Part shown: positions 931 to 38,100 of the stretch, in pieces | Layout: every line of letters starts with the position of its first letter | How positions within the stretch are numbered: the first letter of the stretch is position 1 | DNA from: Candidatus Poriferihabitaceae bacterium | Lineage (GTDB): Bacteria > Pseudomonadota > Gammaproteobacteria > Arenicellales > Poriferihabitantaceae | Direction: 5' to 3' | Length of the DNA stretch: 64,000 nt | Assembly (NCBI GenBank): GCA_965206445.1 | Contig: CBDBJR010000002.1 | Location: forward strand, 2,417,469-2,481,468 | Notes under the pieces: generated by a model | Databases searched by the model: none | What the model saw: only the letters and a program-made list of their open reading frames with translations | Told to the model about the DNA's origin: nothing | Position numbers and translations under genes: made by a program

Positions 931-1764
931 TCAGGCATCAACGGCGCCCAGCATCCGGCGCGTCTGCCGGCTATCGGCGAGCGGCCGGTCGCGGTCGGCC
1001 AGCAGGGCTTTGGCTTGCCGGATCAGATCCAGATTCGACCCGGCCATTTTGCCGTCGCGGGTCACCAGGCTGTTTTCAAACCCGACCCGGATATGGCCGC
1101 CGGTGTCGACGGCGCGTTCGAGGTGGTGATATTCGTGCGCGCCAAAACCGCACACCATCCAGTCTGCATTGGCCTGCCACCGGTCGACAAACCCGGCCAG
1201 CAGATCGGCGCCCGCAGGCGCCGCCGGGTATCGCCCGAGCACAAATAAAAGACTATGGCCGTGCGCCGGAATAAGCCCGCGCTGCAATAAGTGATAATAA
1301 TGCGCCAGCTCCGCCGGCGCATAGACAATCACCTGCGCCAGAATGTTTTCCGCCGCCAGCCAGTGGAAAAACGCCGCCGCCCGGCTCTCGGACGCGGCAT
1401 CGGGCGCCAGCTCGCGCAGCGCCACCGTCACCGCCTCCGGGTGCATTGCCTTGACTGCCGCAATCTGCTGCGGCGGCGAGTACAGGCCCATCGACTCGGT
1501 GGTCGCCTGAATCACCAGTTGATCGCCCACCGCCCGCCGGATGGCGCGCATCGTATCGACATAGATATCGGGGTCAAGGCTGTGCGCGCCGGTGGCCGTT
1601 CGGATATGCAGATGCAGCAGCGTAACGCCGGCGGCGCAGGCCTCGACAGCGGTTGCCACCAGCTCACGCTTGCTCAGCGGAATCGCCGGATGGTCGCACT
1701 TTTGTTTGCTGGCGCCGTTCGGGGCGAGCCCGATAACGGCGGGATGGCGCGCGGTTCTGGTCAT
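931..1764 (-). CDS. beta-keto acid cleavage enzyme family protein (BKACE / DUF849, 3-keto-5-aminohexanoate cleavage enzyme-like)
   Basis: 277-aa ORF in the track. The N-terminal ...AVIGLAPNG...HPAIPLSKRELVATAVEACAAGVTLLHLHIR...G.HSLDPDIY, then LVIQATTES, then C-terminal GGHIRVGFENSL match the conserved blocks of the BKACE TIM-barrel family. ATG at 1764-1762, stop at 931. Confidence 0.85.
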   Translation of the reverse strand: MTRTARHPAVIGLAPNGASKQKCDHPAIPLSKRELVATAVEACAAGVTLLHLHIRTATGAHSLDPDIYVDTMRAIRRAVGDQLVIQATTESMGLYSPPQQIAAVKAMHPEAVTVALRELAPDAASESRAAAFFHWLAAENILAQVIVYAPAELAHYYHLLQRGLIPAHGHSLLFVLGRYPAAPAGADLLAGFVDRWQANADWMVCGFGAHEYHHLERAVDTGGHIRVGFENSLVTRDGKMAGSNLDLIRQAKALLADRDRPLADSRQTRRMLGAVDA

Positions 1765-17100: not shown

Positions 17101-20100
17101 CCGGCGGTCACGGTCGCGGTGATGCTGCCGTTCTCCTCATCAGTGCCGTCGTCGGTGGTGGGCACCGTCAGGGTGGCGGTGGTGGTGGTGGCGGCGATGG
17201 TGACCGACGTCGGCGCGACGCCGGCAATGAAGTCGCCCGCCTGCGTCACCGTCACCAGGACGGTCAGGTCGCTCGCCGGAGCCGTGTCCGCCGTCAGCGT
17301 GAAGGTGGCCGCCGTGCCCTCGGTCACCGAGGAAGTCCCGGCGGCGATGGAGATGGCGGGCAGCGCCGTACGGGTGGCGGTGACCGTGTAGGTCAGCGTG
17401 GTGGTGGTGTCTTCGGCGGTGACGATAATGTCAATGTCCAGCGGCGTGTCGATCTCCAGGACAATATCGGCGCTTTCGCTGCCGCTGGTGACGCTGGCGC
17501 CGTTGACGGTAATCGTGGCTCTGGAGTCGGTGGCGGTCGGCGTCACGGTGACCGTGCCGACGCTGTTGGCGAGCGCGACGGTATAAGCCGTGGTGGTGGA
17601 GTCAAACGCCGGGTCCAGGATGCCGTCGGACACGCTCAGGCCGCTCAACGTGGCGTCGGTCGAGGCGTCGTCATCCTCGACCGCGACACTGGCGCTGTCG
17701 GCGGTGCCGTCCACCGTGTAGTCGATGCCGGCGGTCACGGTCGCGGTGATGCTGCCGTTCTCCTCGTCAGTGCCGTCGTCGGTGGTGGGCACCGTCAGGG
17801 TGGCGGTGGTGGTGGCGGCGATGGTGACCGACGTCGGCGCGACGCCGGCAATGAAGTCGCCCACCTGCGTCACCGTCACCAGGACGGTCAGGTCGCTCGC
17901 CGGAGCCGTGTCCGCCGTCAGCGTGAAGGTGGCCGCCGTGCCCTCGGTCACCGAGGAAGTCCCGGCGGCGATGGAGATGGCGGGCAGCGCCGCACGGGTG
18001 GCGGTGACCGTGTAGGTCAGCGTGGTGGTGGTGTCTTCGGCGGTGACGATAATGTCAATGTCCAGCGGCGTGTCGATCTCCAGGACAATATCGGCGCTTT
18101 CGCTGCCGCTGGTGACGCTGGCGCCGTTGACGGTAATCGTGGCTCCGGAGTCGGTGGCGGTCGGCGTCACGGTGACCGTGCCGACGCTGTTGTCGACCGC
18201 GACGGTATAGGCCGTGGTGGTGGAGTCAAACGCCGGGTCCAGGGTGCCGTCGGACAGGGTCAGGCCGCTCAACGTGGCGTCCACCAGCGAAATGGCGGTG
18301 GCGAGTTGTGCCGCACTTACCAGGAGGCAATCGCTCACACCGGCGGAGGTGGCAATGGCAGCGAAATCGTTCCGGGAGCAGACAAAATGGGCGGCGCGGA
18401 CGGTGTCGTCGATAACAAAACCGTCGACGCTGCTGGTGGCAATGTCGCCCAGAGTGTCGAGCACAGGGTCAAACACGCCGGAGGGCAAACCGGTTCCCGC
18501 CGTGAACGGATTGTTGCTCAGTGCCAAATTCATAAGGTTATCCAGGCCGTCAAAAATATCGGCAGGCAGTCCGGTGAGTCCGTTGGAGAACAAAAGCAAG
18601 GACTCGAGCGCCGTCAAGCCGTCAAAAATGTCTTCGGGCAATGTGGTGAGGCCTCTGTTGCCGGATAAGTCCAAACTCGTCAGCCCCGTCAAGCCATCAA
18701 AATCACCGCTTAGCAATGTAGAGATAGTTTGACTATTCAGAGCAAGCGTCGTAATTGAAGCCAGTTGCATTGCAGTCACACTCGTGCATTCGGTGGCTGC
18801 AGAATTCGCGATCGCATTCCGCACCTGTGCCGTGCGGCCGCAGATATTCATGCCGGCGCTGGCGGTAATAGCGATGGTGTCGGTCATCAGGTCGCTGGCG
18901 ACGGTGTGGCCGGCGGCGGCGAGGGTGACAGACAGCATGCCGTCGGCAGTGATGTCCTCGCCGCTGTACGCCAGCGTCAACGTGGCGACGGTGTCGCTGT
19001 CACGGGTGAAATCGCTCACGCTCACAGTCCCGGCGACGGTATCCGTCACGCTGAAGTGGCTTTGCAGCAGGGTGCCCGGGGCCGCCTCGTATGCGGTGTT
19101 GGCCAGCGTGACGGTGACGGTCGGCGCCGGTGTGGCAAACAGGTTGGCTTCGGTCAGCGTGCCGGCCAGGGTGGCGACCGGGATGGCGGACGGGTCGACA
19201 ATCTGGATCGTGAACATCAGCACGCCGGCGTCGGTGGTGGCGGTATCCGTGTCGCTGTCGCTGGCCGTGTAGGTGTAGGCGGCCTGCGCGGTGCCCACCA
19301 CCGGGGTGCCGGTGAGGGTGCGGTCGGCGGCGGTAAAGGTCAGACCGGTCGGCAGGGTCGGGGCGAGGGCATAGGTCAACGCGCCGTTGCCGCCGGTGGC
19401 CGACGGCAGTGTGACGGTGCCGATACTCGTGCCCACGGTGTAGGTCTGGGCGGTGACGGTCGCCGAGCCGAAATCCGGGGCGGTGTTGGTCACCGTAATC
19501 GGCAGCACATTGCCGGCGAGCAGGTCGCCGGTGCCGACGTGCGCGGACGCCAGCACCGTGACCGACAGGGTGCCACTGTCGGGAATGGCCTCGCCGCTGT
19601 GCGCCAGGGCCAGCGTCGCCACGGTGTTGCCGCTGCGGGTGACACCGCCGGCGGGCACGCTCACCGTCCCGGCGATGGTGTCGGTCAGCCTGAAGTCCTC
19701 CAGCCCCAGCGCCGACGCGTCTGCATAGGTGGTGTTTTCCAGTGTGACCGTGACCGTGGCGGTGGTGAGGTTGGCCCCGGTCAGCGCCGTCGGCGCGGCC
19801 AGCGTGGCCGACAGCACCGCCGGATTGACGGTCAGCATAAACATGAACGTGTCGCTGTCCGGGTCGCTGGCGTCGGCATCGGTCGCCGTCAGCGTGTAGG
19901 TGGTCTCCAGCTGGGTGACGGTCGGCGCGCCGGTGATTTGGCGATTGGTCGCATCAAACGTCAGACCGGTCGGCAGCGCCGGCACCAGGGTGTAGGTCAG
20001 CGAACCGTCGCCGCCGGTGGCGGTCGGCAGGGTGACGGTGCCAACGTCACGGTTGATGGTATAGATTTGCGGCGCCAGCGGCGACGTGCCGGCAAAGCTC

Positions 20101-23100
20101 GGTATTGCATCGGTGTTGTTCTCTATCGCCTGGTTCGCGAAACCGGCGACCGGGTTGCCGGCCCGATCGCGCAGCGGATTCGCCCTGGCGGTGTACGCCA
20201 GCGTCACCGTATCGGTCGATACCACGGTTGCGCTCAGCGTCAGCGTCACCGTCGTCCCGTCAATCTCCACGCCGCCGGCGTTCACCGTCGGGGCGACGCC
20301 CGGCGCCAGGGTCAGACTGTAGTCGTCCGGCATCGGCACCGAGCCGGGGTCAAGCGCCTCGCTGTAGGTCAGCATCAGCAGCGCGCCATTAATGGTTGCC
20401 GTGTCCAGTGTCGGCTCGTCGGTGTCCACTCGATTGGCGGCGACCGCGGTAATGGCAACATGGTCAAGCATCGCATCGTTGCCGACGGCGTCCCGGATGG
20501 CGCCGCTGTTGGCCGTCAGGGCGTTGCCCGCCACCGCGACCCCATCGTCATCGTTGTCGCCGTCGACCACCGTGTAGCTGAACGTCAGTACCGGCGGCGT
20601 GTCGCTGCCGCTGGTGTAGATCGCCTGGCGCGTCTCAGTGCCCACCATCAGCGGTATCTGCGGCGTGCCGCTACTGACATCCACCGTCACCGCTTCGCTG
20701 AAGGTCGCCGTCAACGTAATCGCAGTGCGGGTAGTATTATTATACGGCCCGGCGGCCAGCACCAGCCCGGTGACCCGTGGCACAACGCCGTCTACCTGAT
20801 GTTCAGCGTCAGCCACCGCCTCACTGTGCGTGCGCACCGCATCCATGCTATCGGCGGTGTCCCGAATCGCGCTGTCGGCGGGCAGGCTCAGCGCATCGGC
20901 GGCAATGCTCACGCCGTCAGTGTCGTTGTCGCCGGTGACCACCGTATAGCTGAACACCAGCGTCGTCGGGCCGCTGGCGTCGGCGTCGTAGACCGCCTGG
21001 CGCGTCTCGGTGCCCACCGTCAGCGCCAACTGCGGCCTGCCGGTGACCGCGACCTCCTCGCTGAAGGTCACCGTCGCTTCAATCACCTCGCCAATCGCAT
21101 AGATACCGTCGTCGGCAATCGAGGGCAACCCGATGGTGTCGGCATCCGAGGTCAACTCGACGCCGGTGATCATGGGCGGCGGCGGGGTGTTGTTGGTGAC
21201 CGTCCGGTTGGTGAAATTGGCGGCCCGGTTGCCGGCCCGGTCGCGCAGCGGCTCCGCCCCGGCGGTGTACGCCAGCATCACCGTATCGGTCGATACCACG
21301 GTTGCGCTCAGCGTCAGCGTCAGCGTCGTCCCGTTGATTGCCACGCCGTCGGCGGCGACCGTCAGGGCGACGCCCGACTCCAGGGTCAGGGTGTAGTCGG
21401 TCGGCGCCGGCACCGAGTCGGCATCGAGTGCATCGTTCTCGAGGTAGGACAGCACCAGCGTATCGCCGGTGACGGTGGCCGTGCTGACCGTCGGTATCAG
21501 GGTGTCCACTTGATGGGCGGCGTCCGCGACAATGGCAACGTGGTCAAGCAGCGCATCGTTGCCGGCGGCGTCCCGGATGGTGCCGCCGTTGACCGTCAGG
21601 GTGTCTGCCGTCACCGCAACCCCATCGGCAGCGTCATCGACGAGGAGCACCGTGTAGCTGAACACCAGCTCCGTCGAGCCGCTGCCGCTGGCGTAGACCG
21701 CCTGGCGCGTCTCCGTGCCCACTCTCAGCGGTATCTGCGGCCGGCCGCTACCGACGTCCACCGTCACCGCCTCGCTGAACGTCGCCGTCAGCGCAATCAC
21801 ATCGCCGCGCATCGTATACGGGCCGGTGCTGCTGATGACGACACCATCCACCGTCGGGACGACGCCGTCTACCGACTGGGCAGGGTCAGCGGCCACCGTC
21901 ACACTGTGCGTGATGGCCGCGACGACGGTGTCGTCGTCCGCCGCCCGAATCGTCCCGCCGGCCAGACTCAGCGCATTTTCATCGATGCTCACGCCGTCAG
22001 TATCCTCGTCGCCGGCGACCACCGTGTAGCTGAACACCAGTTCCGTCGAGTCGCTGCCGCTGGTGTAGGTCGCCTGGCGCGTCGCCGTGCCCACCGTCAG
22101 CGCCAACTGCGGCCTACCGGTGACGGCAACCGCCTCGCTGAAGGTCACCGTCGCCGCAATCTCATCGCCAGGCACATAGACGCCGTCGCCGGCGTTCGAC
22201 GTCAACGCTATCGCCGTGATGCTCGGCATCTCGGTGTTGTTGATGACCATCTGGTCGGTGAGATTGGCGGCCTGGTTGCCGACCTGATCGCGCAGCGGGG
22301 TCGCGTCGGCGGTGTACACCAGCGTCACCGTATCGGTCGATAGCACCGTCGCACTCAGCATCAGCCGCACCGTCTGCCCGATGATGGTCACGCCGGCGAC
22401 CGTCGGCGCAGTGCCCGCCGTCAGTGTCAACGTGTAGTCTGCCGGCGCCGGCGCCGCGCTGGCGTCGAGCACCTCGCTGTAGATCAGCGTCAAGACACCG
22501 TCGCTGACGGTTGCCGTGTCCAGCATCGGCACCACGGTGTCCACTCGATTGGCGACGACCGGGTCAATCGACTCGTGACTCAGCACCGCGTTGTTGCCGG
22601 CGGCGTCCCGGATGGTGCCGCTGTTGCGCGTCAGGGCGTTGCCTGCCACCGCAATCCCATCGGCATCATTATCGCCGACGACCACCGGGTAGCGGAATAC
22701 CAGTGCCGCCGTGCCGCTGCCGCTGGTGTAGACCGCCTGGCGCGGCTCCGTGCCCACCGTCAGCGGTATCTGCGGCGTGCCGCCACCGACCGCCACCGTC
22801 ACCGCCTCGCTGAAGGTCGCCGTCAGCTCAATCACATCGTCGGCTATATACGGGCCGCCAGCGGTCAGCACCAGCCCGGTGACCGTCGGCACGACGCCGT
22901 CTACCCGATGCGCAGTGTCAGCCACCGTCTCACCGTGCGTGATCACCGCGTCGATGATATTGGTGCGGTCTCGTAGCGCACCGCCGACGTGGCTCAGCGC
23001 ATTGGCGTCGATGCTCACGCCGTCACCGTCGCTGTCGCCGGGGGCCACCGTGTAGGCAAACACCAGCGCCGTCGTCGGGACGCTGCCGCCGGTGTAGACC

Positions 23101-26100
23101 GCCGGGCGCGGCTCGGTACCCACCGTCAGCGCCAACTGCGGCGTACCGGTGACCATGACCGCCCTATCGAACGTCACCGTCGCTTGAATGATGTCGCCAA
23201 GCGCATAGACGCCGTCGCCGGCATTCGAGGTCAACGCGATGGTGGTGATGCGCGGCCGCGGCGGGGTGGTGGTGGTCACCGCCACGTCGGTCAGATCAGC
23301 GGCCGGGTTGCCGGCCAGATCGCGCAGCGGAGTCAGCATCACGCTGAGCGTCACCGAATCGGTCGATTCCACGGTTGCACTCAACCTCGCCGTCACCGTC
23401 ATCCCGTCGATCGCCACGCCGTCGGCGACGACCGTCGGGGCGACGCCCGACCTCAGGGTCAACCTCCAGGCCGCCGGCGCCGGCGCCGAGCCGACGTCGA
23501 GTAACTTATCGTAGGTCAGCACCAGAACATCGCCGGTGACGGTGGCCGTGCTGAACATCGGCGCGACGGCGTCCACGCGATGGGCGGCGGTCGGGCCAAT
23601 GGCAGCGTGCCCCAGCGTCACCGGCGCGTTGCCGGCGGCGTCCCGGATGGTGCCGCCGTTGCGCATCAGGGTGTCTTCTGCCACCGCAATCCCATCGACA
23701 TCCGTATCGCCGGCAACCACCGTGTAGCTGAATACCAGTGCCGCCGTGCCGCTGCCGCTGGCGTAGACCGCCTGGTGCGTCACCCCGCCCACCGCCAGCG
23801 GTATCTGCGGCGACCCACTACCGACGTCCACCGTCACCGCTTCGCTGAACCCCACCGTCAACGCGATCTCCTCGCCCCCGGCATACGGGCCGGTGCTGCT
23901 GATGACCACACCGGCCACCGTCGGGGCAATACCATCTACCGCATGATTGGCGTCAGCCGGCACCGCAGCGTGCGTGATCACCGCAGCGTGGCCACCGGCG
24001 CGGAGCGTGCTGCTGCCGACGTGGATCAGCGCATTGGCGGCAATGCTCACGCCATCAGCGTCGCTGACGCCAACCGACACCGTGTAGCTGAACACCAGCA
24101 TCGCCGTGTCGGCGCCGCGAACATAGTTCGCCGGGCGCGGCTGGTTGCCCACCATCAGCGCCAACTGCGGCGTGCCGGTCACCGCCACCGAGTCGCTGAA
24201 GGTCACCGTCGCCTCAATCACCTCGCCCGCCGCATACCGGTTGTCGGCGCCGGCAACCGACGTCAACGCAACCCCGATGATGGTCACCACTGTGCCGTTG
24301 GTCACCGCCCGGGCGGTGAGATTGTCGGCCCTGTTGCCAGCCAGATCGCGCACCGGATTCGCACCGACGGTATAGGTCAGCAACACCACATCACTCGGCA
24401 ACACCGGCGCGCTTAGCCGCAGCGTCACCGTCCGCCCGCTGACGGTCACATCGGCCACCGTCGGCGAACTGCCCGCGGTCAGCTGCCAGGCGGTCGGCGC
24501 CGGCGCCGAACCGGCGTCGAGTTCCTCATCGTAGGTCAGCACCAGCGTATCGCGGTTGACAGTCGCCGTGCTGACCGTCGGCGCGACGGTGTCCACGCGA
24601 TGGACGGCGTCGGCGACGACGGCGGCATGATCAGGCACCGCGGCGTTGCCGGCGACGTCCCGGATGCTGTCGCCGTTGGTCATCAGGGCGTTGCCGGCCA
24701 CCGCAAACCCATTGTCATCGCGGTCGCCGGCAACCACCGTGTAGCCGAACCCCAGCGCCATCGAGCCGCTGCCGCTGGCGAAGACCGCCTGGCGCGTCGC
24801 CCCGCCCACCGTCAGCGCTATCTGCGGCATGCCGCCGGTGACATCCACCGCCACCACCTCGCTGAAGCGCACCGTCAGCGCAATCTCCTCGCCCACGGCA
24901 TACGGCCCGGTACTGCTGATGACCACACCGTCCACCGTCGGGGCAGCACCGTCTATCCGGTGCTCGGTGTCAGCAGCGACCGCCATAAACGTAATCACCG
25001 CATCGTCGCCGTCGGTCACCGCCCGAATCGTACTGCCGGGCAGGTTCAGATTCAGCGCATTGACGCCGATGCTCACGCCGTCAACGTCGCTGTCACCGGC
25101 GACCACCGTGTAGCGGAACACCAGCGCCGTGGTCGTGCTGCTGTCGATCGCATAGGCCGCCGGGCGCGTCTCGGCGTCCACCGTCAGCGCCAACTGCGGC
25201 GTACCGGTGACCATCACCGGCTCGCTGAAGTTCACCGTCGCGTCAATCACCTCGCCTGGCGCATAGATACCGTCGCCGGCATCCGAGGTAATCTCAATCG
25301 TCGTAATGCTCGGCGCTACCGTAGTGGTATTCACCACCGCCCGACCCGCCAGATCAGCCGCCTCGTTACCAGCCCGGTCGCGTAGCGGCACCGTCCCGGC
25401 GATATAGTCCAGCGTCACCACATCACCCAGCCCCACCGCCGCACTCAGCGTCAGCATCACGTCCCGCCCACTGATCCGCACGCCGTCGGGGACCACCGTC
25501 GGCGCCGTCCCCGCCACCAGGGTCAGCGTCCAGGCGGTCGACGCCGGCAGCGCAGCGGCGTCGAGCGCCTCATCATAAGCCAGCACCAGCACCCCGCGGT
25601 TGACGGTCGCCGTGCTGAACACCGGCACAACCGTGTCCACTTGATGGGCGACGTCCGCAGCAATCGCAGCATGCGCCAGCACCGCGTCGTTGCCGGCCAC
25701 GTCCCGGATGCTGCCGCCGTTGGCCGTCAGCTCGTTGCCCGCCACCATGACCCCATCGCCATCAGTATCGCCGTCGACCACCGTATAGCTGAACACCAGC
25801 GCCGGCGTACCGCTGCCGCTGGCATAGACCGCCTGGCGCGTCGCCGTGCCCACCGTCAGCGCTATCTGCGGCGTCCCGCCACCGACCGCCACCGTCACCG
25901 CTTCGCTGAAGGTCGCCGTCAGCGTAATCACATCGGCGGCCATATACGGGCCGTCACCGGTCAGCACCAGCCCGTCGGTGGTGGTGACCATCGGCACGCC
26001 GGTGTCCACCAGATGGGCGACGTCCGCAGCAATCGCAGCATGCGCCAGCACCGCGTCGTTGCCGGCCACGTCCCGGATGCTGCCGCCGCCGGTGATCAGG

Positions 26101-29100: not shown

Positions 29101-32100
29101 CGCGCCGTGCCGCCCACCGTCAGCGCTATCTGCGGGATCTGCGCCGTGCCGCTACCGGCCGCCACCGTCACCATCTCGCTGAAGGTCGCCGTCAACGTAA
29201 TCACCGCAGCGCGCCTGTACGGGCCGTCGGCCAGCGCCAGCCCGGTGACCCGTGGCGCCACGCCATCCACCCGGTGCCGGTCGCCGCCAACCACCGCCGC
29301 GTGCGCGAGCACCGCATTCGCGGTATCGTCGGCGTTGTAAATCGCACTGCCGAGGGGCAGGTTCAGCGCATCGGCGGCAACGCGCACGCCGTCGGCAGCG
29401 TTGTCGCCGGCCACCACCAGATAGCTGAACACCAGCGCCGTGTCGGTGCTGCGGCGGCTGTCGTAGATCGCCTGGTGCGTATCCAGGCCCACCGTCAACG
29501 CCACCTGCGGGCTGCCGATGACCGTCACCGCCGCGTCGAACGTCACCGTTACGTCAATCGGGTTGCCAATCATATAGACGTTATCCGAGCCGGCATCCGA
29601 GGACAACCGGATGGCGCTGACCATCGGCATCGACAGCGCGGTGTTGTCCACTGCATGGGCGGCGTCCGCGATAATGGCGGCATGGTCAAGCACCGCGTCG
29701 TTGCCGGCGGCGTCCTCGATCGTGCCGGCGCCGGTCGTCAGGGCGTTGGCCGCCACCGTGACCCCGTCACTATCGCTGTCAGCGGCGACCACCGTGTAGC
29801 TGTACACCAGCTCCGGCGAGCCGCTGCCGCTGGTGTAGGCCGCCGGGCGCGCCGTCGTGCCCACCGTCAGCGGCAGCGGCGGCAGGTCGATGACCGTCAC
29901 CGCCTCGCTGAAGCTCGCCGTCACCGCAATCGCATCGCCAACCCGGTACGGGCCGGTGCTGCTCAGCACCAGATCAACCAGCGTCGGGGCGACACCGTCC
30001 ACCAACTGGGCGGCGTCAGCGGCCACCGTCAGACTGTGCGTGATGTCTGCGTCGACGGTGTCGGCCGCGTCTCGAATCGTCCCGCCGGCCAGACTCAGCG
30101 CATTTTCACCGATGCTCACGCCGTCCGTGTCCTCGTCGCCGGCGACCACCGTGTAGCGGAACACCAGTTCCGTCGAGTCGCTGCCGCTGGTGTAGGTCGC
30201 CTGGCGCGTCGCCGTGCCCACCCTCAGCGCCAACTCCGGCACACCGGTGACGGCAACCGCCTCGCTGAAGCCCACCGTCACCGTAATCCTCTCGCCAGCC
30301 GTATAGCCGCCATCGCCGGCGCTCGACGTCAACAACACCACGTTGACGAACGGCACCGCGGCGAGGTTGTCCACCTCCTCGGCCATCAAATCGGCGGCCT
30401 GGTTGCCGGCCAGATCGCGCAGCGGGGTCGCGGCGGCGGCGTAGGTCAGCTGCACCGTCGTATCGGTCGACAGCACCGCCGCACTCAGCCTCAGCTGCAC
30501 CGTCTGCCCGCTGACCGTCACGCCGGCGACCGTCGGCGCAGTGCCTGTCAGCCGGTAGTCTGCCGCCGCCGGCACCGCGCCGGCGTCGAGCGCCTCGGCG
30601 TAGATCAGCGTCACCACGTCCCCCCTGACGGTTGCCGTGTCCAGCATCGGCACCACGGTGTCCACCCGCTGGACGGCGTTCGCGACAATGCCGAGATGCG
30701 CCAGCACCGCATCGGCGCCGGCGTCCCGGATGGTGGCGCCGTTCAACGCCAGGGCATTCGGCGCCACCGTAACCCCATCGGCATCGTTGTCGCCGGCGAC
30801 CACCGTGTAGCTGAACACCAGCGCCGTCGAGCCGCTGCCGCTGGTGTAGACCGCCACGCGCGCCGTGCTGCCCACCGTCAGCGCTATCTGCGGCGTGCCA
30901 CCCCCGACGTCCACCGTCACCGCTTCGCTGAACGTCACCGTCAATTCAATCTCATCGCCCGCCATGTACGGGCCGATGCTGCTGATGGCGACACCATCAC
31001 CCTCGCGTATCGCCGGGGCGACGCCGTCTACCGCATGGGCAGGGTCAGCGGCCACCGTCGCATGATGGTTCGCGAGCACCGCGTCGAGGCCGGCGGCGTT
31101 GTGAATCCTGCTGCCGCCGACGTGGGTCAGCGCATTGGCGTTGATGCGCACACCGTCCGTGTCCTGGTCGCCGGCGGCCACCGTGTAGCGGAACACCAGC
31201 GCCGTCGAGCCGCTGCCGCTGGTGTAGACCGCCGGCCGGGTCGCCGGGCGACCCGGCGCGCCCGCGCCCACCTGCAGCGCCAGCTGCGGCGCACCGGCGA
31301 TCGTGACCGCCTCGCTGAAGGTGACGGTCGCCGCAATCGCGTCGCCAATCACATAGACGTCATCGTCGCCGGCGTCCGAGGTCAACGCAATGCCGTCGAC
31401 GATGATGGTCGGCGCCCCGACCACGACGGTGTTGGTTACCGCCCGGCCGGTGAAACTGGCCGCAATGTTGCCGCTCTGATCGCGCACCGTGCTCAGCGGA
31501 TCCGAGCTGGCGGTGTAGTCCAGCGTCACCACGTCCGCCGCGGTCACGGCGGTGCTCAGCCGCAACGCCACCGTCAGCCCGCTGATCACGGCGCCGACGA
31601 CCGTCGGCGCCGCATCGCCCGACGCCAGTGCCAGCGTCCAGGCTGCTGTCTGCCCCTGCGCGTCGGCGAGTGCCTCGTTGTAGCTCAGCACCAGCACCTC
31701 CCCCGTGCCGTCAATAGTGGCCGCGCTGAGTGTCGGCGCGGTGTTGTCCACCCGCTGGGCGGCGTCCGCGGCAATCCGATTGTGGGCCAGCAGCGCAGCG
31801 TAGCCGACGGCGTCGCGGATGGTGGCGCCGTTGGCCGTCAGGGCATTGGGCACCACCACGACCCCATCGTCATCATTGTCGCCACCGACCACCGTGTAGC
31901 TGAACGCCAGCACCGTCACCGTGCCGTTGCCGGTGTCGATCTCCCGGCTGTTGGTGTAGACCGCCTGGCGGACGGTATTGCCCACCGTCAGCGCACTCTG
32001 CGGGGTGCCGCCGGCGACGTCCACCGTCACCGTCTCGCTGAACGTCACCGCCAACGTAATCGCGTCGCCGCGGGTATACGGGCCGGTGCTGCTGATGGCG

Positions 32101-35100
32101 ACCGCGGCCACCGTCGGGACGACGCCGTCCACCTGATGGGTGGCGGCATCGGCCACCGTCAGCGTATGCGTGATATCCGCGTTGTTGCCGGGCTCGTTCA
32201 CCAATTGAATCGTGCTGCCATCGGCGTGGGCCAGCGCATTGGCGGCAATGCTCACCCCGTCCGCGTCCGCGTCGCCGGCGGCCACCGTGTAGCTGAACAC
32301 CAGCACCTGCGAGTCGCTGCCGCGGGTGTAGGCCGCCTGGCGCGTCTCGGTGCCTACCCTCAGCGTCAACTGTGGCACTTCGGTGACCGTGACCATCCCG
32401 CTGAACATGACGGTCGCCTCAATCACGTCACCAATCACATAGACGTCATCGTCGCCGGCGTCCGAGGCCAACGCAATGGCGGTGATGCGCGGCGGGAGCT
32501 GGCGGAACACCGACACCGTGTAGGTCTGCATCGTGGTTGTGTCGGCGGCAGTCACGACAATGGTAATTGGCACATCCACGCCCGGCGTCGGCAGGTCAAT
32601 GGCCGCACTGGGGTCGCCACTGGCTACGGGGGCAGTGTTGACGGTAATTGTGGCCCCGGCCTGGTTGGCGGTCGGCGTGACGGTCACGCTGGTGACGCTG
32701 TTGGCGACGACAAGGCCATAGGCGGGGGCGTTGAAGTCAAAGGCCGGCGACAGCGCGCCGGCGGAAACCGTCAGGCCGCTCAGCGTGGCGTCGGTCTGAT
32801 TGTAGTCGGCGAGTTGTGTGGAGCTGATGCGGATGCAGTCGGTGACGGCGGCGGTGAAGGCGACAATGTCGGCGACGTCGGGACGGGTGCAGACAAAATG
32901 GGCGGCTCGGACGGTGGCGTCGACTGTGAGAGTGGACAAGGTATCCAACACGGCGTCAAAGATGCCGACGGGCAACCCGGTTTCCGGCGTGAATGGATTG
33001 AATGCATTGGATGCCACCCCCAAAATCTCCAACGCATCCAGGCTGTCAAACAAACCTGCAGGCAGGGTGGTCAATTCGTTGTTGCTCAAATCCAGATTCC
33101 CAAGCGTTGTCAAGCCGGCAAACGTGTTGGCATCAATTGAGTCGAGCAGATTATTATCCAGGCGCAAAGTTAGAAGCGCCGACAAACCGGCAAAAATGTT
33201 GGCATCAAGTGCGCCGTCGAGCTGGTTGTTCTCCAATTGCAACGTCTCCAGCGCCGTCAAGCCGGCAAACGTGTTGGCATCAAGTGCGCCGTCGAGCTGG
33301 TTGTTCTGCAATTGCAACCCCTCCAGCGTTGTCAAGCCGTTAAACAGACCGGCGGGCAGTGTGGCGAGGCCGTTCCTCTGCAACAGCAAATCCTTCAGCG
33401 CCGTCAAGCCGTTAAACAAACCGGCGGGCAATGTGGCGAGGCTGTTGCCTTGCAAACTCAACGTCTCCAGCGCCGTCAAGTCGTTAAACAGATCGGCGGG
33501 CAGGTCGGTGAACCTGTTCTCATCCAAATCCAACCTCACCAGCGCCGTCAAGTCGTTAAACAGATCGGCGGGCAGGTCGTCGGCGAGCCTGTTCCGCTCC
33601 AAATCCAACGTCTCCAGCGCCGTCAGCCCGGCAAAATCACCGCTTTGCAAGGTACTGATCCCCATGTTCACCAGATCAAGTCCCGTAATCGCAGCCAGCT
33701 CCGCCGCACTCACACTCACACAGTCGGTGGACGTGACGCCGGCGTCGGCGAGGAGGGCATCGCGCACCTGTGCCGTGCGGGCGCAGATATTGATGCCCAT
33801 GCGGGTGTCGGCGGTAATCGGGATGCTGCCGGCGGGCAGGTCGGCAGTGCCGGTGTGGGCGGCGGCGGCGACGGTGACGAACAACTCGCCGTCCATCAGA
33901 ATGTCGGCGCCGCCATCGCCCAGCGTCAGTGTGGCGACGCGCGCGCTGTCGCGGCTGACCCCGGTCACGCGCACCGTCCCGTCTACGCTGTCACTGACGA
34001 CGAAGCCGTCCGCCCGCAGCTGGTTGGCGGGCACGTATTCGCTACCGGACAAGGTCACCGTCACCGTCGGCGCCGGGTCGGCGAACAGCTCGGCCTCGGT
34101 CAGGCTACCGGCCAGCAGCGCGCTCGCCGGGCGGGTGACGGTGACGGTATAGGTCTGCGTGGTCGCCATGTCGGTGGCGGTCAGCGCAATCGCCACCGCC
34201 ACCGGCAAGTCGATGCTCAGCGCAATCGCCGCACTCGGGCGGCCACTGTCCACCGGCTCGGCGTTGACGGTAATCGTGGCGCCGGACTGGCTGGCGACCG
34301 GCGTCACCGTCACGGCGGTGACGGCGGTGTCGACGGTGACGGTGTAGTCGGTGGTGGCGGCGGCAAACGCCGGCGTCAGTGTGCCGGCGGAAATCGTCAG
34401 GCCGCTCAGCGTGGCGTCGGCCAGCACAAAGGCGGCGTATTGCGCCGCGGTGACGCGCAGGCAGTCGGTGACGCCGGCGGCGGCGGCAATGGCCGTGGCG
34501 GCGGCGCGCGAGCAGACAAAATGCGCCGCGCGGACGGGGGCATCAACCGCGAAATAGGGGCCCGACCCCGGGATGGCGTCCGGGGCGTCGACAATGTCGC
34601 CCAGCCCTGCCAGCACCGGGTCAAACACCCCGACCGGCAGCCCAATCAGCGGGGTGAACCGGTTGGTGCGCAAATCCAGCGTCGTCAGCGCCAGGCCGGT
34701 CAGCACCCCGGCCGGCAGCGCGGCCAGTTGGTTGTCGCCCAGATCCAGCGTCGTCAGTGCCGCCAGGCCGGCAAACACCCCGGCCTCGAGCGCGGCCAGA
34801 CGGTTGTCGCGCAGACGTAACGCCGCCAGCGCTGGCAGGTCGTTAAACGCCCCACTCGGCAGCGTCGTCAGGTGGTTGCTGTCGAGGCGCAAATCGGTCA
34901 GCGCCAGACCGGTAAACACCCCCACCGGCAGCGTGGCCAACTGATTGCCGCTCAAATCCAGATTGGTCAACGCCGCCAGCCCGGCAAACAGCCCGACCGG
35001 CAGCGCGGCCAGTTGGTTATCGTTCAAATCCAGATTGGTCAACGCCGTCAGGCCGGCAAACAGCCCGGCATCGAGCGCGGTCAGCCCGGCGCTATCCAAC

Positions 35101-38100
35101 TCCAGCACCTGCAACGCCACCAGGCCGGCAAAAATGTCGCTCGGCAGCGCGGTGGCAAACGGGTTGTTGCTCAAATCCAACGACGTCAGCGCGGACAAGC
35201 CGGCAAAATCACCGCGTTGCAGCGCCGTGATGCTCTGCCCATCCAGATCCAGGCGGCCCGTAATCGAACCCGGATCAGCCACACTGGTGCAGTCGGTCGC
35301 CGCCGCGGCGGCGACAATCGCATCCCGCACCGCCGGCGTGCGGCCGCAGATATTGCTGCCGACGCTGGCGGTAATCGCCACACTGCCGGCGGCCAGGTCG
35401 GCGGTGCCGCTGTGCCCGGAGGCCAGCAGCGCCACACGCAGCTGGCCGGCGGCGGTAATGTCGCCGCCGTCATGCGCCAGTGTCAGCGTCGCCACGCTGG
35501 CGCTGTCGCGCGCGACCCCGGTCACGCGCACCGTCCCGGCCACGTCATCGGCGAGCAGGAAATCCGCCTCGGTCAGCTCGTCGGCGGCCACATAATCGGT
35601 ATTTTGCAGCGTCACCGTCGCCCGCGTGCCGGCAACCAGATTGGCCTCGGTCAGCGTACCGGTCAGCGTCGCCCTCGCCGCGCTCGCCGCCGGGCGGGTC
35701 ACGGTCACCGTGTAGGTGCCGGCGGTGCCGCCGCCGGCGGCGGTCACCACAATCGAAATCGCCGTCTCGGCGCCCGCCGGCAGCGTAATCGGCGCACTCG
35801 GGCTGCCGCCGGCCACCAGCGCGCCGTTCACGCCAATGGTCGCTCTGGTCTGGCTGGCCACCGGCGTCACCGTCACGCTGGCGACCGGGCTGGCCACGAC
35901 GACCGTATAGGCGTCGGTGTCCGGGTCGAACGGCGGGGTCAGAATGCCGACGGAAATCGTCAACTCGCCCAGCAGCGCGCGGAAAGCGGCCAACTGCGCC
36001 GCGGTGACGCGCAGGCAGTCGGTGACGCCGGCGGCGGCGACAATGGCCGCGAAGTCGGCCCGCGGGCAGACAAAATGGGCGTCACGGACGTCGTCGTCAA
36101 CCGCGAAATAGGCGCCCACCCCGGGGGCGGCCACAATGCCGCCCAGACTATCGAGCACCGGGTCAAACACCCCGACCGGCAGCCCGCTGCCCGAGGCGAA
36201 ATTATTGCCGCTCAGATCCAGCGTGGTCAGACTCGACAGATCGCTAAAAACCCCGGCCTCGAGCACGGTCAGGCCGTTGCTCATGGGGCTGTTGTTCAAA
36301 AACAACTGCTCGAGCGTCGACAGCCCGGCAAACACCCCGCTCGGCAGGGTCGTGAACCCGCCCTCGCCCAGCGCCAGATTGGTCAACGGCAGCCCGGCAA
36401 ACAGATTGGCCGGCAGCGTGGCCAGGGGGTTGCCACTCAACCCCAGATTGGTCAGCGCCGACAGGCCGGCAAAAATGTCGGCCGGCAGCGCGGTCAAATC
36501 ATTGTCCCGCAGATTCAACCTCGCCAGCGCCGACAGGCCGGCAAAATCACCGGGTTGCAGCGCCGTGATGCGTTGCCCATTCAACATCAACCGGTCGATC
36601 AATTGCAGCCCCGCCGCCGGCACACTGGTGCAATCGTCCGGGGTCGGGTCGAGCGCCGCCAGAATCGCCGTCCGCACCACCGGCGTGCGGCGACAGATAT
36701 TCACCCCGGTGCTGGCGGTAATCGGCACACTGCCGGCATCCAGATCGAGCGCGTCTTCGGCGGTGTGCCCGGCGGCCAGCACGGTCAGCTGCAGCTGGCC
36801 GTTGGTGGTCACGTCGGACACGCTGGTGGTCAGCGTCAGCGTGGCGACGGTGTCGCTGTCGCGGCTGACGTTGGTGATCATCAGCTCGCCCACGGACGCC
36901 GACAGCCGGAAGTCGCTCGCATTGAGGTCGGCCACCGGCGCGTATTCGGTGTTGAGCAACGTCACCGTCACCGTCGGCGGCTCGGCGAACAACGCGGCCT
37001 CGGTCAGGCTGCCGGCCAGCGTCGCCGCCGGCGCCTCGGTGGCGACCACGCGGACGGTCACCTCAGCCGAATCCGCGTTGCCGTCATTGACTACCAGCCC
37101 GATGATGTAGGCGCGCTCCATCATCGGCAGCGTGAAGCGCAATTCCGCCTCGTCGGTCGTGTCCAGCGTCACCGGCGGGACGGCGTTGCGCACCACCCGC
37201 CAGCGGTAGGCGGCGATGGCGTCGCCATCCGGGTCGGTGCTGAGACCGCCGTTCAACACCACCGTGCCGCCGAAGTCCACCCGCAGCGTCGGCGCCTGCT
37301 CGATCCGCGCCTGCGGAGCGCGGTTGACGGCGACCGGAATCGACAGCGTCGTGCGCGACGGGCTGCCCGGCGCATCGGTCGCATCGGCCGCCGTCGCCAG
37401 TATGGTCGTGCTGCCAACCGCCACCGCGGTGATGGTGACCACGCTGCCGGCCAGCGTGGCGGTGGCGATGGCCGGGTCAGCCGACACCACCGTGTAGGTC
37501 AGGACATCGTCTTCCGGGTCGTCGAACCGGGTCACGACGTCAACCGTCACCGGCGTGCGCCCCAGCGTCACCGTCTGCCGCGCGACGCTGCCCAGCGTCA
37601 CCGGCGGCTCGTTGACACCGGTGACGGTGACGCTAACCGTCGCGGTCGCCATGACCGTCGTCGGGCCGGCGGTCGCGGCCAGTTGCAGCGTCAGCGTGTA
37701 GCCCCGCGACGACGGCGACAACACCGGCGCGGTCTCGAAATCGATCGGCGCGGCGACCGTCAGCTGACCGCTGTCCGGGTCGATCGCAAACCGCCCGGCG
37801 GCGTTGCCGGCGGTGATCGTCCACACCCGGCCAGCCTCCGGGAACCGGCTCGGCGTCAGCGGCACACCGACCTCGGTGTCGAGCGCGGTGTTTTCGGCCA
37901 GCGTGAAGGCCGTCAGCGCCGGCAGCGTCGGCGTCGGCGCCGGCGCGACGGTCACGGCAAACGTCTGCGTCGCCCGCGACGGCGCCTCGGGGGTGTTGGA
38001 CGGGTCCGTCGCGGTCACCGTCACCGTGGTCGTGCCGGCCGCCACGGCGGTAATCGTGACCACACTGCCGGTCACCTCGGCGGTGGCGATGGCCGGGTCA

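What the first reader, a model, noticed from the sequence alone, without database searches (positions are those of the whole stretch)
18282..37040. Five eukaryote-style, cysteine-capped LRR modules; they hold nearly all cysteines of the protein
Seen: five modules share one grammar. Each has a ~105-aa beta-sandwich (..TL.G.LTEA.LF..), then an N-cap NIC.RT..VR.A......(D/E)C(T/V)(S/D)V, then 4-10 LRRs of 24-25 aa (L..L.L..N.L..LP...F.GL..), 33 in total. A C-cap HF(V/A)C.R.......I.....V.DC(L/I)(R/L)(V/I) and a cadherin-like beta-sandwich follow. That makes 4 Cys per module. Apart from one pair at 62592-62621, these 20 are the only cysteines I can find in more than 20,600 residues. Established: paired-Cys LRRNT/LRRCT caps flanking 24-residue LRRs are typical of eukaryotic extracellular LRR proteins. 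Autotransporter passengers are known to be Cys-poor, with tolerated pairs closely spaced. Here the pairs are about 16-22 residues apart. Inference: these are ligand-binding heads displayed at intervals along the fibre, possibly mimicking host or partner-cell receptors. They would form short disulfide loops compatible with export.
Basis: partly seen in the sequence, partly recalled or inferred. Interest (0 to 1): 0.7.

Follow-up and report, generated by a model that had tools for sequence, protein, structure and literature searches.

The report
Cysteine-capped LRR heads in giant adhesin
A bacterial surface protein of more than 20,600 residues carries five leucine-rich-repeat binding modules, each closed at both ends by a small cysteine-pair cap; the repeats look like those of animal receptors, but the caps are a bacterial type, and the C-terminal cap matched no Pfam family or solved structure.

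Summary
One minus-strand ORF (2169..63902, open at its 5' end) has 22 Cys in 20,577 residues. Twenty of them sit at aligned positions in five modules. The modules hold 6, 9, 10, 4 and 4 LRRs, 33 in all.

The repeats are the 24-residue "typical" class, and the closest solved structures are VLRs, repebodies, Nogo receptor, LRRTM2 and NGL. The caps are not LRRNT or LRRCT. Each has one Cys pair instead of four cysteines, both are predicted helical, and neither hits Pfam even at E<=10.

The N-cap (IC.RT..V..AI...C..V...L) is common in metagenomic bacterial LRR proteins and weakly resembles the internalin cap. The C-cap is rare: 74 representatives among 1.84 billion proteins. It matched no Pfam family and no PDB sequence, and contains a likely duplicate of the N-cap hairpin.

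Cysteines are kept or lost together (358 both, 4 neither, 0 single), which favours disulfides. No Cys-Cys distance could be measured.

Whole modules recur at 47-66% identity in giant ORFs of MAGs from three phyla; a fourth matches only the upstream domain.

A C-terminal autotransporter beta-domain passes Pfam's threshold. Verdict: a new variant of a known kind, of moderate interest.

The parts
2169..63902 (-). Giant ORF of 20,577 aa, open at its 5' end to the window edge. Domain order: He_PIG Ig array, cadherin domains, three LRR modules, SWM_repeat array, LRR module 4, SWM_repeat array, LRR module 5, 23-24 tandem 209-aa units, then a beta-barrel.
35694..37025 (-). Module 1 (aa 8960-9403): beta-sandwich, N-cap, 6 LRRs, C-cap, Cadherin-like domain
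34131..35672 (-). Module 2 (aa 9411-9924): same order of parts, 9 LRRs
32502..34121 (-). Module 3 (aa 9928-10467): same order of parts, 10 LRRs
26373..27551 (-). Module 4 (aa 12118-12510): same order of parts, 4 LRRs
17994..19175 (-). Module 5 (aa 14910-15303): same order of parts, 4 LRRs. This is the module modelled with AlphaFold2.
36594..36704 (-). N-cap of module 1 (Cys 9070 and 9091)
35979..36185 (-). C-cap of module 1 (Cys 9279 and 9296)
35253..35357 (-). N-cap of module 2 (Cys 9519 and 9538)
34425..34643 (-). C-cap of module 2 (Cys 9797 and 9814)
33684..33794 (-). N-cap of module 3 (Cys 10040 and 10061)
32799..32978 (-). C-cap of module 3 (Cys 10338 and 10356)
27120..27230 (-). N-cap of module 4 (Cys 12228 and 12249)
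26667..26870 (-). C-cap of module 4 (Cys 12383 and 12400)
18750..18851 (-). N-cap of module 5 (Cys 15021 and 15039). Model: Cys, an 11-residue helix, Cys, a short helix, then the first LRR strand; pLDDT 90-98.
18291..18491 (-). C-cap of module 5 (Cys 15175 and 15192). Model: an extra strand (GLPxGVFD), a beta-hairpin, a helix (TVRAAH), Cys, a helix, Cys, then a long helix leading into the Cadherin-like sandwich; pLDDT 89-97.
62592..62621 (-). The only other cysteines, Cys428 and Cys437 (9 residues apart), inside the He_PIG array
2172..3455 (-). C-terminal helical linker plus beta-barrel, ending in ...QWQWTW. The PF03797 Autotransporter match itself covers window 2877-3245.

Best explanation
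The five modules are bacterial LRR binding domains built into a giant outer-membrane-anchored surface fibre. The organism is a high-GC, probably gammaproteobacterial and probably sponge-associated bacterium.

Each module is a short solenoid of 4-10 'typical' 24-residue LRRs. A helical hairpin closes each end, and one Cys pair probably locks each hairpin as a disulfide.
- N-cap: an internalin-like helical cap carrying an added Cys pair.
- C-cap: an extra rung, a beta-hairpin, and a second copy of the same Cys hairpin. It joins the solenoid to a Cadherin-like Ig sandwich.
The resulting order, Ig-like domain, cap, LRR, cap, Ig-like domain, works like an internalin head, with a concave face for a protein or glycan ligand on a rigid stalk.

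The protein is otherwise almost Cys-free, and its few Cys pairs are 9-21 residues apart. This fits export of an unfolded passenger through a type V (autotransporter) route, where only short disulfide loops pass.

Which steps are shown and which inferred:
- Shown: the LRR class, the cap sequence families, the both-or-neither pattern of the N-cap cysteines and the near-invariance of the C-cap pair, the predicted secondary structure, the beta-domain match, and the occurrence of the module in other giant ORFs.
- Inferred: that the pairs are disulfides, that the modules bind ligands, that the targets are host or neighbouring cells, and that export runs through the beta-domain.
For: - LRR_8 and Cadherin-like hit in all five modules.
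- Model 1: the N-cap and solenoid reach pLDDT 90-98. Model 2: the C-cap reaches 89-97.
- Foldseek's top PDB hits are repebodies, which I recall carry an internalin-B cap on VLR repeats. VLR, NgR2, LRRTM2 and NGL-3 follow.
- The N-cap profile's only PDB match is the cap of internalin H, at E 0.026.
- N-cap and C-cap profiles align with both Cys in register: hhalign probability 88.5%, E 2.8e-6. Each HMM also cross-hits the other cap.
- Among full-length N-caps, 358 have both Cys, 4 have neither and 0 have one. The 358 include two long-loop copies whose second Cys I placed by eye. The spacing varies from 18 to 28 while the Cys stay.
- Among C-caps, 261 have both Cys and 1 has Tyr at the first position.
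- PF03797 scores 31.5 bits against a cut-off of 26 on the last 478 aa.
- Cys are 7.6-fold depleted overall.
- The non-cap Cys read in relatives also come mostly in close pairs inside other domains.
- The rule that only closely spaced Cys are tolerated in autotransporter passengers is stated in PMC3546941.
- The same gene sits next to a 97%-identical BKACE gene in an independent assembly, so it is not an assembly artefact.
Against: - No Cys-Cys distance could be measured.
- Each predicted disulfide loop encloses a helix. As I recall, Leyton et al. 2011 reported that rigid elements inside such loops resist autotransporter secretion. I could not read that paper here.
- A passenger of more than 20,000 aa is, to my knowledge, far larger than any characterised autotransporter passenger. 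The Pfam match covers only model positions 5-129 of 255, and no solved barrel matches by sequence.
- The internalin link for the N-cap is weak: E 0.026, and no Internalin_N Pfam hit.
- No ligand, expression or localisation data exist.
- The habitat is inferred from two named homologs and from the mix of taxa.
Confidence: 0.6

Rival explanations
1. The modules are eukaryote-derived extracellular LRR domains, acquired from a host, with true LRRNT and LRRCT caps. They act as mimics of host receptors.
For: - The repeats are the 24-residue typical class, and the nearest solved structures are animal proteins: VLR, NgR2, LRRTM2 and NGL-3 at 28-47% identity.
- The order LRR, cap, Ig-like domain resembles NGL, LINGO and AMIGO, but only with poor superposition (rmsd 14-16 A).
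- LRR proteins are counted among the eukaryotic-like proteins of sponge symbionts (PMC6506613).
Against: - No LRRNT, LRRCT or LRRNT_2 hit at E<=10 on cap segments.
- The caps have two Cys, not four. They have no CxC, no NPWxCxC and no Trp, and are helical rather than a beta-strand cap.
- The N-cap occurs in hundreds of copies across the bacterial metagenomic proteins and MAG loci scanned here.
- Every hit to the C-cap that could be traced lies in a bacterial genome or an ENA metagenome assembly; the origin of most of the 74 representatives is unknown.
- Mimicry of a particular receptor was not tested.
Confidence: 0.07
2. The cysteine pairs are metal ligands or another functional pair, not disulfides. 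For example, the C-cap could form a structural Zn site from the invariant His (AHFVC), the Asp (DC) and the two Cys.
For: - His, both Cys and the Asp before the second Cys are invariant or nearly so in the C-cap.
- Loss of both Cys together would also be expected for a metal site.
Against: - The N-cap, which appears homologous, has no conserved His.
- For an exported surface protein, disulfides are the usual fate of paired Cys (general knowledge).
- The spacing between the Cys varies from 16 to 28 residues, which a simple staple tolerates more easily than a four-ligand site.
Confidence: 0.08
3. The LRR modules are structural or self-association elements, for example joints or fibre-to-fibre contacts. 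They are not heads that recognise a foreign ligand.
For: - The modules sit in the middle of the visible protein (44-74% of its length), not at the distal tip.
- Relatives carry up to 19 modules in tandem, which looks more like a building block than a unique head.
- Two of the five solenoids have only four repeats.
Against: - LRR solenoids are, from established knowledge, overwhelmingly interaction surfaces.
- Repeat number (4-10) and sequence (about 50% identity) differ between modules, as expected for diversified binding specificities.
Confidence: 0.2
4. The reading frame or the Cys pattern is an artefact of assembling a highly repetitive, GC-rich region.
For: - The gene contains 23-24 nearly identical 627-bp units.
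- Related ENA contigs show frameshifted fragments.
Against: - The frame is open for 61.7 kb.
- The five modules are only about 50% identical to each other, so they cannot collapse onto one another in assembly.
- The same gene end and neighbouring gene occur in an independent assembly.
- The same modules occur in closed MAG chromosomes.
Confidence: 0.02

Closest known systems
Internalin-type bacterial LRR adhesins (InlA, InlB, InlH of Listeria)
   Same: - A helical N-terminal cap, then an LRR solenoid, then an Ig-like domain fused to its C-terminal end, all displayed on the cell surface.
- The N-cap grammar (hydrophobic residue, helix..V(T)...L..I..L) aligns weakly with the internalin H cap.
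- Repebodies head the Foldseek list. That they carry an InlB cap is my recollection.
   Different: - Internalin repeats are 22 residues long (my knowledge); here they are 24-residue typical repeats.
- To my knowledge internalin caps have no cysteines.
- No Internalin_N or LRR_adjacent Pfam hit.
- Here a separate Cys-stapled C-cap lies between the solenoid and the Ig-like domain.
- The anchor is a beta-barrel in a diderm, not LPXTG or GW modules.
Animal extracellular LRR proteins with LRRNT and LRRCT (VLR, Nogo receptor, Slit, LRRTM, NGL, LINGO, AMIGO)
   Same: - The 24-residue consensus LxxLxLxxNxLxxLPxxxFxxL.
- The best structural matches, at 28-47% identity in the repeats.
- Cysteine-containing caps at both ends.
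- An Ig-like domain follows the LRRs, as in LRR-Ig proteins.
   Different: - The caps differ in Cys number (2 against 4), pattern, secondary structure and sequence family.
- LRRCT is reported to be exclusive to animals (PMC2637281).
- The context here is a bacterial giant autotransporter-like protein.
Eukaryotic-like proteins (LRR, cadherin, FN3, ankyrin) of sponge symbionts
   Same: - LRR plus Cadherin and Cadherin-like domains, with an autotransporter domain, occur in large mixed-architecture surface proteins (PMC6506613).
- The only named homologs of the LRR part come from sponge cyanobacterial symbiont MAGs (PMC7883664).
   Different: - I did not find the Cys-stapled caps, the fixed module grammar or the sharing of the module across phyla in the few papers I read.
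- The habitat of this window is inferred, not shown.
Classical (type Va) autotransporter adhesins
   Same: - A C-terminal PF03797 beta-domain preceded by a helical linker.
- The passenger is very poor in Cys, and the Cys present are closely spaced pairs.
   Different: - The passenger exceeds 20,000 aa and is built of Ig-like and LRR domains, not the beta-helix usual for classical autotransporters (my knowledge).
- The match to the barrel model is partial.
- The N-terminus and any signal peptide lie outside the window.

Membership tests
LRRNT (PF01462, SM00013) | Four cysteines in a CxnCxCxmC pattern | tested here: not met
   The N-cap has two Cys, C-x(18-21)-C in the window's five copies (longer loops in some relatives), with no CxC, across 362 full-length unique copies. 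Definition from PMC2637281.
LRRNT (PF01462, SM00013) | A beta-strand antiparallel to the main sheet, and a match to the family profile | tested here: not met
   The model shows Cys, an 11-residue helix, Cys, a short helix, then the first LRR strand, at pLDDT 90-98. No PF01462 or PF08263 hit at E<=10.
LRRCT (PF01463, SM00082) | Four cysteines forming two disulfides, the NPWxCxCx3Wx3W start, and a profile match | tested here: not met
   The C-cap has two Cys, 17-18 residues apart, and no Trp. The last LRR ends in NPF or NAF with no Cys. No PF01463 hit at E<=10.
Typical-class LRR (24 residues, Pfam LRR_8) | LxxLxLxxNxLxxLPxxxFxxL repeats of about 24 residues, and a profile match | tested here: met
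   33 repeats, mostly 23-25 residues long. LRR_8 E-values run from 1e-12 to 5e-53, above the gathering score in all five modules. The nearest structures are typical-class proteins.
Internalin family | Internalin_N cap, 22-residue LRRs, and an LRR-adjacent Ig-like inter-repeat domain | tested here: inconclusive
   The N-cap profile hits the internalin H cap only at E 0.026, and there is no Internalin_N or LRR_adjacent Pfam hit. The repeats are 24 residues, not 22. The order of cap, LRR and Ig-like domain is the same.
Cadherin-like beta sandwich (PF12733) | Profile match above the gathering score | tested here: met
   E-values from 3e-11 to 9e-20 after each C-cap. The modelled sandwich has pLDDT above 90 and matches accessory domains of bacterial glycoside hydrolases.
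Type Va autotransporter | A C-terminal 12-strand beta-barrel domain (PF03797) | tested here: met
   PF03797 at E 2e-7, 31.5 bits against a cut-off of 26, on the last 478 aa. The match is partial (model positions 5-129 of 255). The protein ends in an aromatic residue. No solved barrel matches by sequence. The strand number was not determined.
Type Va autotransporter | An N-terminal Sec signal peptide and surface exposure of the passenger | not testable with these tools
   The N-terminus lies outside the window. No experimental data exist.
Disulfide-bonded cap (general) | Cys pairs within bonding distance and oxidised in the mature protein | not testable with these tools
   The models return no coordinates. 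Indirect support comes from the both-or-neither pattern: 358 both, 4 neither, 0 single.

The most novel reading that the evidence does not exclude
The cassette (Ig-like domain, Cys-stapled cap, LRRs, Cys-stapled cap, Cadherin-like domain) is a horizontally exchanged recognition unit shared by unrelated bacteria living in one animal host. Nitrospirales, Gammaproteobacteria and Thermodesulfobacteriota carry the whole cassette; Dehalococcoidia match only the upstream sandwich. The bacteria multiply it to dozens of copies in lysine-free giant fibres. Its C-cap is a fold not yet represented among solved structures, made by duplicating the N-cap hairpin. If so, different symbionts would be addressing the same host or matrix ligands with a common, disulfide-hardened toolkit.
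Probability: 0.25. Interest if true: 0.7.

Novelty: new variant of a known kind. Interest (0 to 1): 0.5.

Why it matters
LRR domains are a main way in which bacteria engage eukaryotic surfaces. In the sources read here, caps with cysteine clusters are described for animal and plant extracellular LRR proteins.

This window shows a bacterial solution to the same problem of capping a solenoid. One small helix hairpin, held by a single Cys pair, is used at both ends and conserved in hundreds of copies. That gives a precise sequence signature (C.RT..V..AI..C and AHFVC.R..DC) for finding and annotating these domains. It also corrects the easy misreading of them as host-derived LRRNT and LRRCT domains.

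The C-cap matched no Pfam family or solved structure and is confined to a small set of giant proteins, so it is a candidate new domain family.

The module is shared at about 50-66% identity by genomes of three phyla from what appears to be one sequencing project, with a partial match in a fourth. The proteins carrying it are stripped of lysine and of unpaired cysteine. Both facts point to strong common selection on exported fibres in that habitat. These fibres offer a tractable entry to how symbionts attach to, or are recognised by, their host.

Tried and rejected
1. Pfam at E<=10 on cap-only segments and on the upstream beta-sandwich. It returned nothing relevant: no LRRNT, LRRCT, LRRNT_2 or Internalin_N.

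2. NCBIfam on a whole module. It gave only weak LRR-level hits to Xop effectors, far below their cut-offs, and nothing for the barrel.

3. PDB sequence searches.
- The C-cap profile found nothing.
- The N-cap profile found only a marginal internalin H hit.
- The barrel found nothing.

4. The first AlphaFold model had a poor C-cap (pLDDT 42-78). A second model with more C-cap sequences fixed this (pLDDT 93).

5. Foldseek on the second model found no analogue of the C-cap itself. It found only LRR fragments, Ig-like domains and poorly superposed LRR-Ig ectodomains.

6. The word-indexed protein search with the C-cap profile returned a single protein and missed known members. I therefore did not use it to judge rarity; the exhaustive search was used instead.

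7. Exact-sequence look-up of the neighbouring gene failed. A 97%-identical copy was found through a homology search.

8. Searching papers for the accession numbers of the related MAGs and assemblies found nothing, so the habitat remains inferred.

9. Leyton et al. 2011 (PMC3234927), on size limits of disulfide loops in autotransporters, is not held.

10. TRF did not report the 627-bp array because its longest period is 500. I counted the units by motif instead.

11. I considered and rejected the idea that the long plus-strand ORFs (up to 3,671 aa) are genes. They are antisense to the giant ORF in DNA of about 70% GC.

Full report
**What is there**

The window is almost filled by one minus-strand ORF, 2169..63902, of 20,577 codons. 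It continues without a stop to the window edge. GC content is about 0.65-0.75.

Pfam gives this architecture:
- a very long He_PIG Ig-like array, roughly aa 1-8,600
- cadherin domains
- three consecutive LRR modules
- a SWM_repeat array
- a fourth LRR module
- a second SWM_repeat array
- a fifth LRR module
- 23-24 tandem units of 208-209 aa, each containing a Cadherin-like PF12733 domain and 95-99% identical to one another
- a C-terminal helical linker and barrel

The last 478 aa, scanned alone, match PF03797 (Autotransporter beta-domain) at E 2e-7. The score is 31.5 bits against a gathering score of 26.

**Check of the observation**

Every countable statement holds.
- There are 22 cysteines. 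One pair is at aa 428 and 437 (window 62592-62621). The other 20 are four per module at aligned positions.
- Spacing is 18-21 residues in the N-caps and 17-18 in the C-caps.
- Position-specific base composition predicts about 166 Cys, so the protein is depleted 7.6-fold. Twenty of the 22 lie in 5.8% of the length.
- The five modules align at 52-55% identity and share one order of parts: an unannotated beta-sandwich of about 105 aa (..ATLAGTLTEA.LF..), N-cap, LRRs, C-cap, Cadherin-like sandwich.
- Each signature motif occurs exactly five times, and no LRR consensus match lies outside the modules.
- The modules hold 6, 9, 10, 4 and 4 repeats, 33 in all, mostly 23-25 residues long.

**What the repeats are**

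LRR_8 hits all five modules strongly.

An AlphaFold2 model of module 5 (431 aa) has pLDDT 90-98 over the N-cap and the solenoid. Foldseek against the PDB puts these first, at 28-47% identity over about 100-170 columns:
- repebodies
- lamprey and hagfish VLRs
- Nogo receptor 2
- LRRTM2
- NGL-3

So the repeats belong to the 24-residue typical class, the class of animal extracellular LRR proteins.

**What the caps are**

They are not LRRNT or LRRCT.

The published definitions (PMC2637281) are:
- LRRNT: four Cys in CxnCxCxmC, with a beta-strand antiparallel to the sheet.
- LRRCT: four Cys forming two disulfides, a start of NPWxCxCx3Wx3W, and apparently restricted to animals.

Here each cap has two Cys, no CxC and no Trp. 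Scanning cap-only segments at E<=10 gives no LRRNT, LRRCT, LRRNT_2 or Internalin_N hit.

In the models the N-cap runs Cys, an 11-residue helix, Cys, a short helix, then the first LRR strand.

The C-cap was modelled at pLDDT 89-97 once more homologs were added. It runs:
- an extra rung (GLPxGVFD)
- a short helix
- a beta-hairpin
- a helix (TVRAAH)
- Cys
- a helix
- Cys
- a long helix that leads into the Cadherin-like sandwich

**Where else the caps occur**

The N-cap motif ((N/G)(I/V)C.RT..V..AI(L/V)...C..V...L..I..L.L) is common. It heads most of the metagenomic bacterial LRR proteins whose sequences I read. An HMM finds 362 full-length unique copies in the sequences gathered here. Its only PDB sequence match is the cap of internalin H, aligned over ..VTDTVTQADLDGITTLS, at a marginal E of 0.026. 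Together with the repebody hits, this makes an internalin-like helical cap the best available description. The evidence for that is weak.

The C-cap is rare. An exhaustive HMMER scan of 1.84 billion representative proteins finds 74 at E<=1e-3 and 61 at E<=1e-10. Many are multi-thousand-residue proteins with up to 19 copies. The ten looked up are unnamed and held in ENA, one also in NCBI. The C-cap has no PDB sequence match, and Foldseek found no structural analogue of the cap itself.

The N-cap and C-cap profiles align with both cysteines, the Arg, the AI and the (D/E)C..(V/I)...QL in register. hhalign gives probability 88.5% and E 2.8e-6. Each HMM also cross-hits the second half of the other cap. 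The C-cap therefore probably contains a duplicated copy of the N-cap hairpin.

**Are the pairs disulfides?**

I could not measure distances, because the structure tool returns no coordinates. The indirect evidence is good:
- Among full-length N-caps, 358 have both Cys, 4 have neither (P0005, P0044, P0057, P0157) and none has just one. Two of the 358 are long-loop copies that the automatic count scored as lacking the second Cys; I placed it by eye a few residues further on.
- Among C-caps, 261 have both Cys and one has Tyr at the first position.
- Loop length varies from 16 to 28 residues while the Cys stay.
- The non-cap Cys read in related giant ORFs also come mostly as pairs about 17-25 residues apart inside other Ig-like domains.

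This matches the rule that autotransporter passengers tolerate only closely spaced disulfides (PMC3546941, citing Leyton 2011 and Jong 2007).

One caveat, from my own memory of Leyton 2011: rigid structure inside such loops was reported to hinder secretion, and these loops enclose a helix. Oxidation after export, or a non-classical route, cannot be excluded. A Cys2-His-Asp metal site in the C-cap is a minor rival.

**Context and relatives**

A scan of one genome per species found complete modules at 47-64% identity in:
- a Nitrospirales MAG (19 loci in a 2.6-Mb chromosome)
- two Gammaproteobacteria MAGs
- a Thermodesulfobacteriota MAG

A Dehalococcoidia MAG matched only the upstream sandwich. 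From their neighbouring accession numbers and naming style, all five MAGs appear to come from one project.

Most of the 7-kb loci are a single open frame from end to end, and several others nearly so, so the modules sit in giant genes there too.

Window module 5 is closer to the Nitrospirales and Gammaproteobacteria copies (59-66%) than to its own paralogs (47-53%). Module 4 has a 79% match in another metagenomic protein. This suggests that the modules have been exchanged between genomes.

The window's organism is not among these genomes, since its GC is 0.69 against 0.51-0.65 for them. A contig in ENA assembly ERZ25069326 carries a 97%-identical BKACE neighbour and the same giant gene end. 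It is followed by dapF, DUF484 and xerC, and by rhodanese, secB and gpsA. From my knowledge, that arrangement is gammaproteobacterial.

The only named homologs of the LRR part come from MAGs of cyanobacterial sponge symbionts (PMC6506613; PMC7883664). The phylum mix is, to my knowledge, typical of sponge microbiomes. A sponge-associated origin is therefore likely but not shown.

**Mechanism proposed**

Confidence is about 0.6.

Each module is a short, doubly capped LRR solenoid held between Ig-like domains on a very long, outer-membrane-anchored fibre. The concave face binds a host, matrix or neighbouring-cell ligand. One short-range disulfide per cap stiffens the ends without blocking export of the otherwise Cys-free passenger.

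Rivals, with evidence given in their own sections:
- eukaryote-derived LRRNT/LRRCT mimics (0.07)
- metal-binding pairs (0.08)
- structural or self-association joints rather than heads (0.2)
- assembly artefact (0.02)

**Novelty and score**

The kind is known: a bacterial surface LRR adhesin domain with cap and Ig-like partner, in a protein rich in eukaryotic-like domains. The variant is not:
- a fixed cassette with the same Cys-stapled hairpin at both ends
- a C-cap with no Pfam or PDB match found
- sharing across phyla
- residence in lysine-free fibres of more than 20,000 aa

I rate it a new variant of a known kind, interest 0.5.

Noticed in passing
window 2169-63902 (whole ORF): Extreme lysine depletion. 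There are 7 Lys in 20,577 residues (0.03%), against about 385 expected from position-specific base composition, and 4 of the 7 lie in the C-terminal barrel. Arg is present at 3.7%. The neighbouring BKACE gene has 6 Lys in 277 aa. Related giant ORFs in MAGs of other phyla, including lower-GC ones (GC 0.51-0.54), also have 0-0.3% Lys. This looks like selection rather than GC bias, for example against Lys-directed proteases or cross-linking.
   Followed up: partly
window about 3600-18280 (aa 15208 to about 20100): There are 23-24 tandem units of 208-209 aa (627 bp), 95-99% identical. Each is a Cadherin-like PF12733 domain followed by a second segment. They form the stalk between LRR module 5 and the barrel. 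TRF missed them because the period exceeds 500.
   Followed up: partly
window 2172-3455: An autotransporter beta-domain (PF03797, above the gathering score) sits at the end of a passenger of more than 20,600 aa. To my knowledge that is far above the size of characterised autotransporters. The match is partial, and no solved barrel matches by sequence.
   Followed up: partly
L003-L030 (genome contigs); P0099-P0169: The same cassette occurs in MAGs of Nitrospirales (19 loci in 2.6 Mb), two Gammaproteobacteria and Thermodesulfobacteriota, with a partial match in Dehalococcoidia. Up to 19 C-caps occur in one 6,777-aa protein. Some window modules are closer to copies in other phyla than to their own paralogs, which suggests horizontal exchange.
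   Followed up: partly
L003, L004, L005, L015, L024, L026, L030: Other domain types in the related giant ORFs also carry conserved Cys pairs about 17-25 residues apart, for example ..ICTVN..(17)..GDCVITVTA and ..SCGI..(25)..TCNF. The rule 'only close Cys pairs' seems to hold widely in these relatives.
   Followed up: no
window 3903-18902 (aa 15001-20000): Pfam reports Peptidase_C3 (picornain 3C), A2M_BRD and DUF4269 with good whole-protein E-values but 0 significant stretches. These look like weak scores summed over 23 identical repeats, not real domains.
   Followed up: no
window about 19400-19750 (aa about 14720-14835): A sixth copy of the module's upstream beta-sandwich (..TLENTTYAD...VATLALAHSGE..VTVLASAHVGTGDL..) stands alone between He_PIG-like units, with no LRR after it. 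I saw it in the translation.
   Followed up: no
window, + strand (e.g. 51753-62768, 25641-33140, 34872-42251): Very long plus-strand ORFs (up to 3,671 aa) lie antisense to the giant gene. This is expected for DNA of about 70% GC with strong codon bias, and they are not genes.
   Followed up: no
window 931-1764 (-): The neighbouring gene encodes a BKACE (DUF849) 3-keto-5-aminohexanoate cleavage-type enzyme. A 97%-identical copy lies beside the same giant gene in ENA assembly ERZ25069326. The flanking genes there (dapF, DUF484, xerC; rhodanese, secB, gpsA) suggest a gammaproteobacterium.
   Followed up: yes
and outputs: The word-indexed protein search returned only proteins of 365 aa or less. 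With the C-cap profile it missed members it had itself returned earlier. Giant proteins seem poorly reachable through that index, so counts from it should not be read as rarity.
   Followed up: partly
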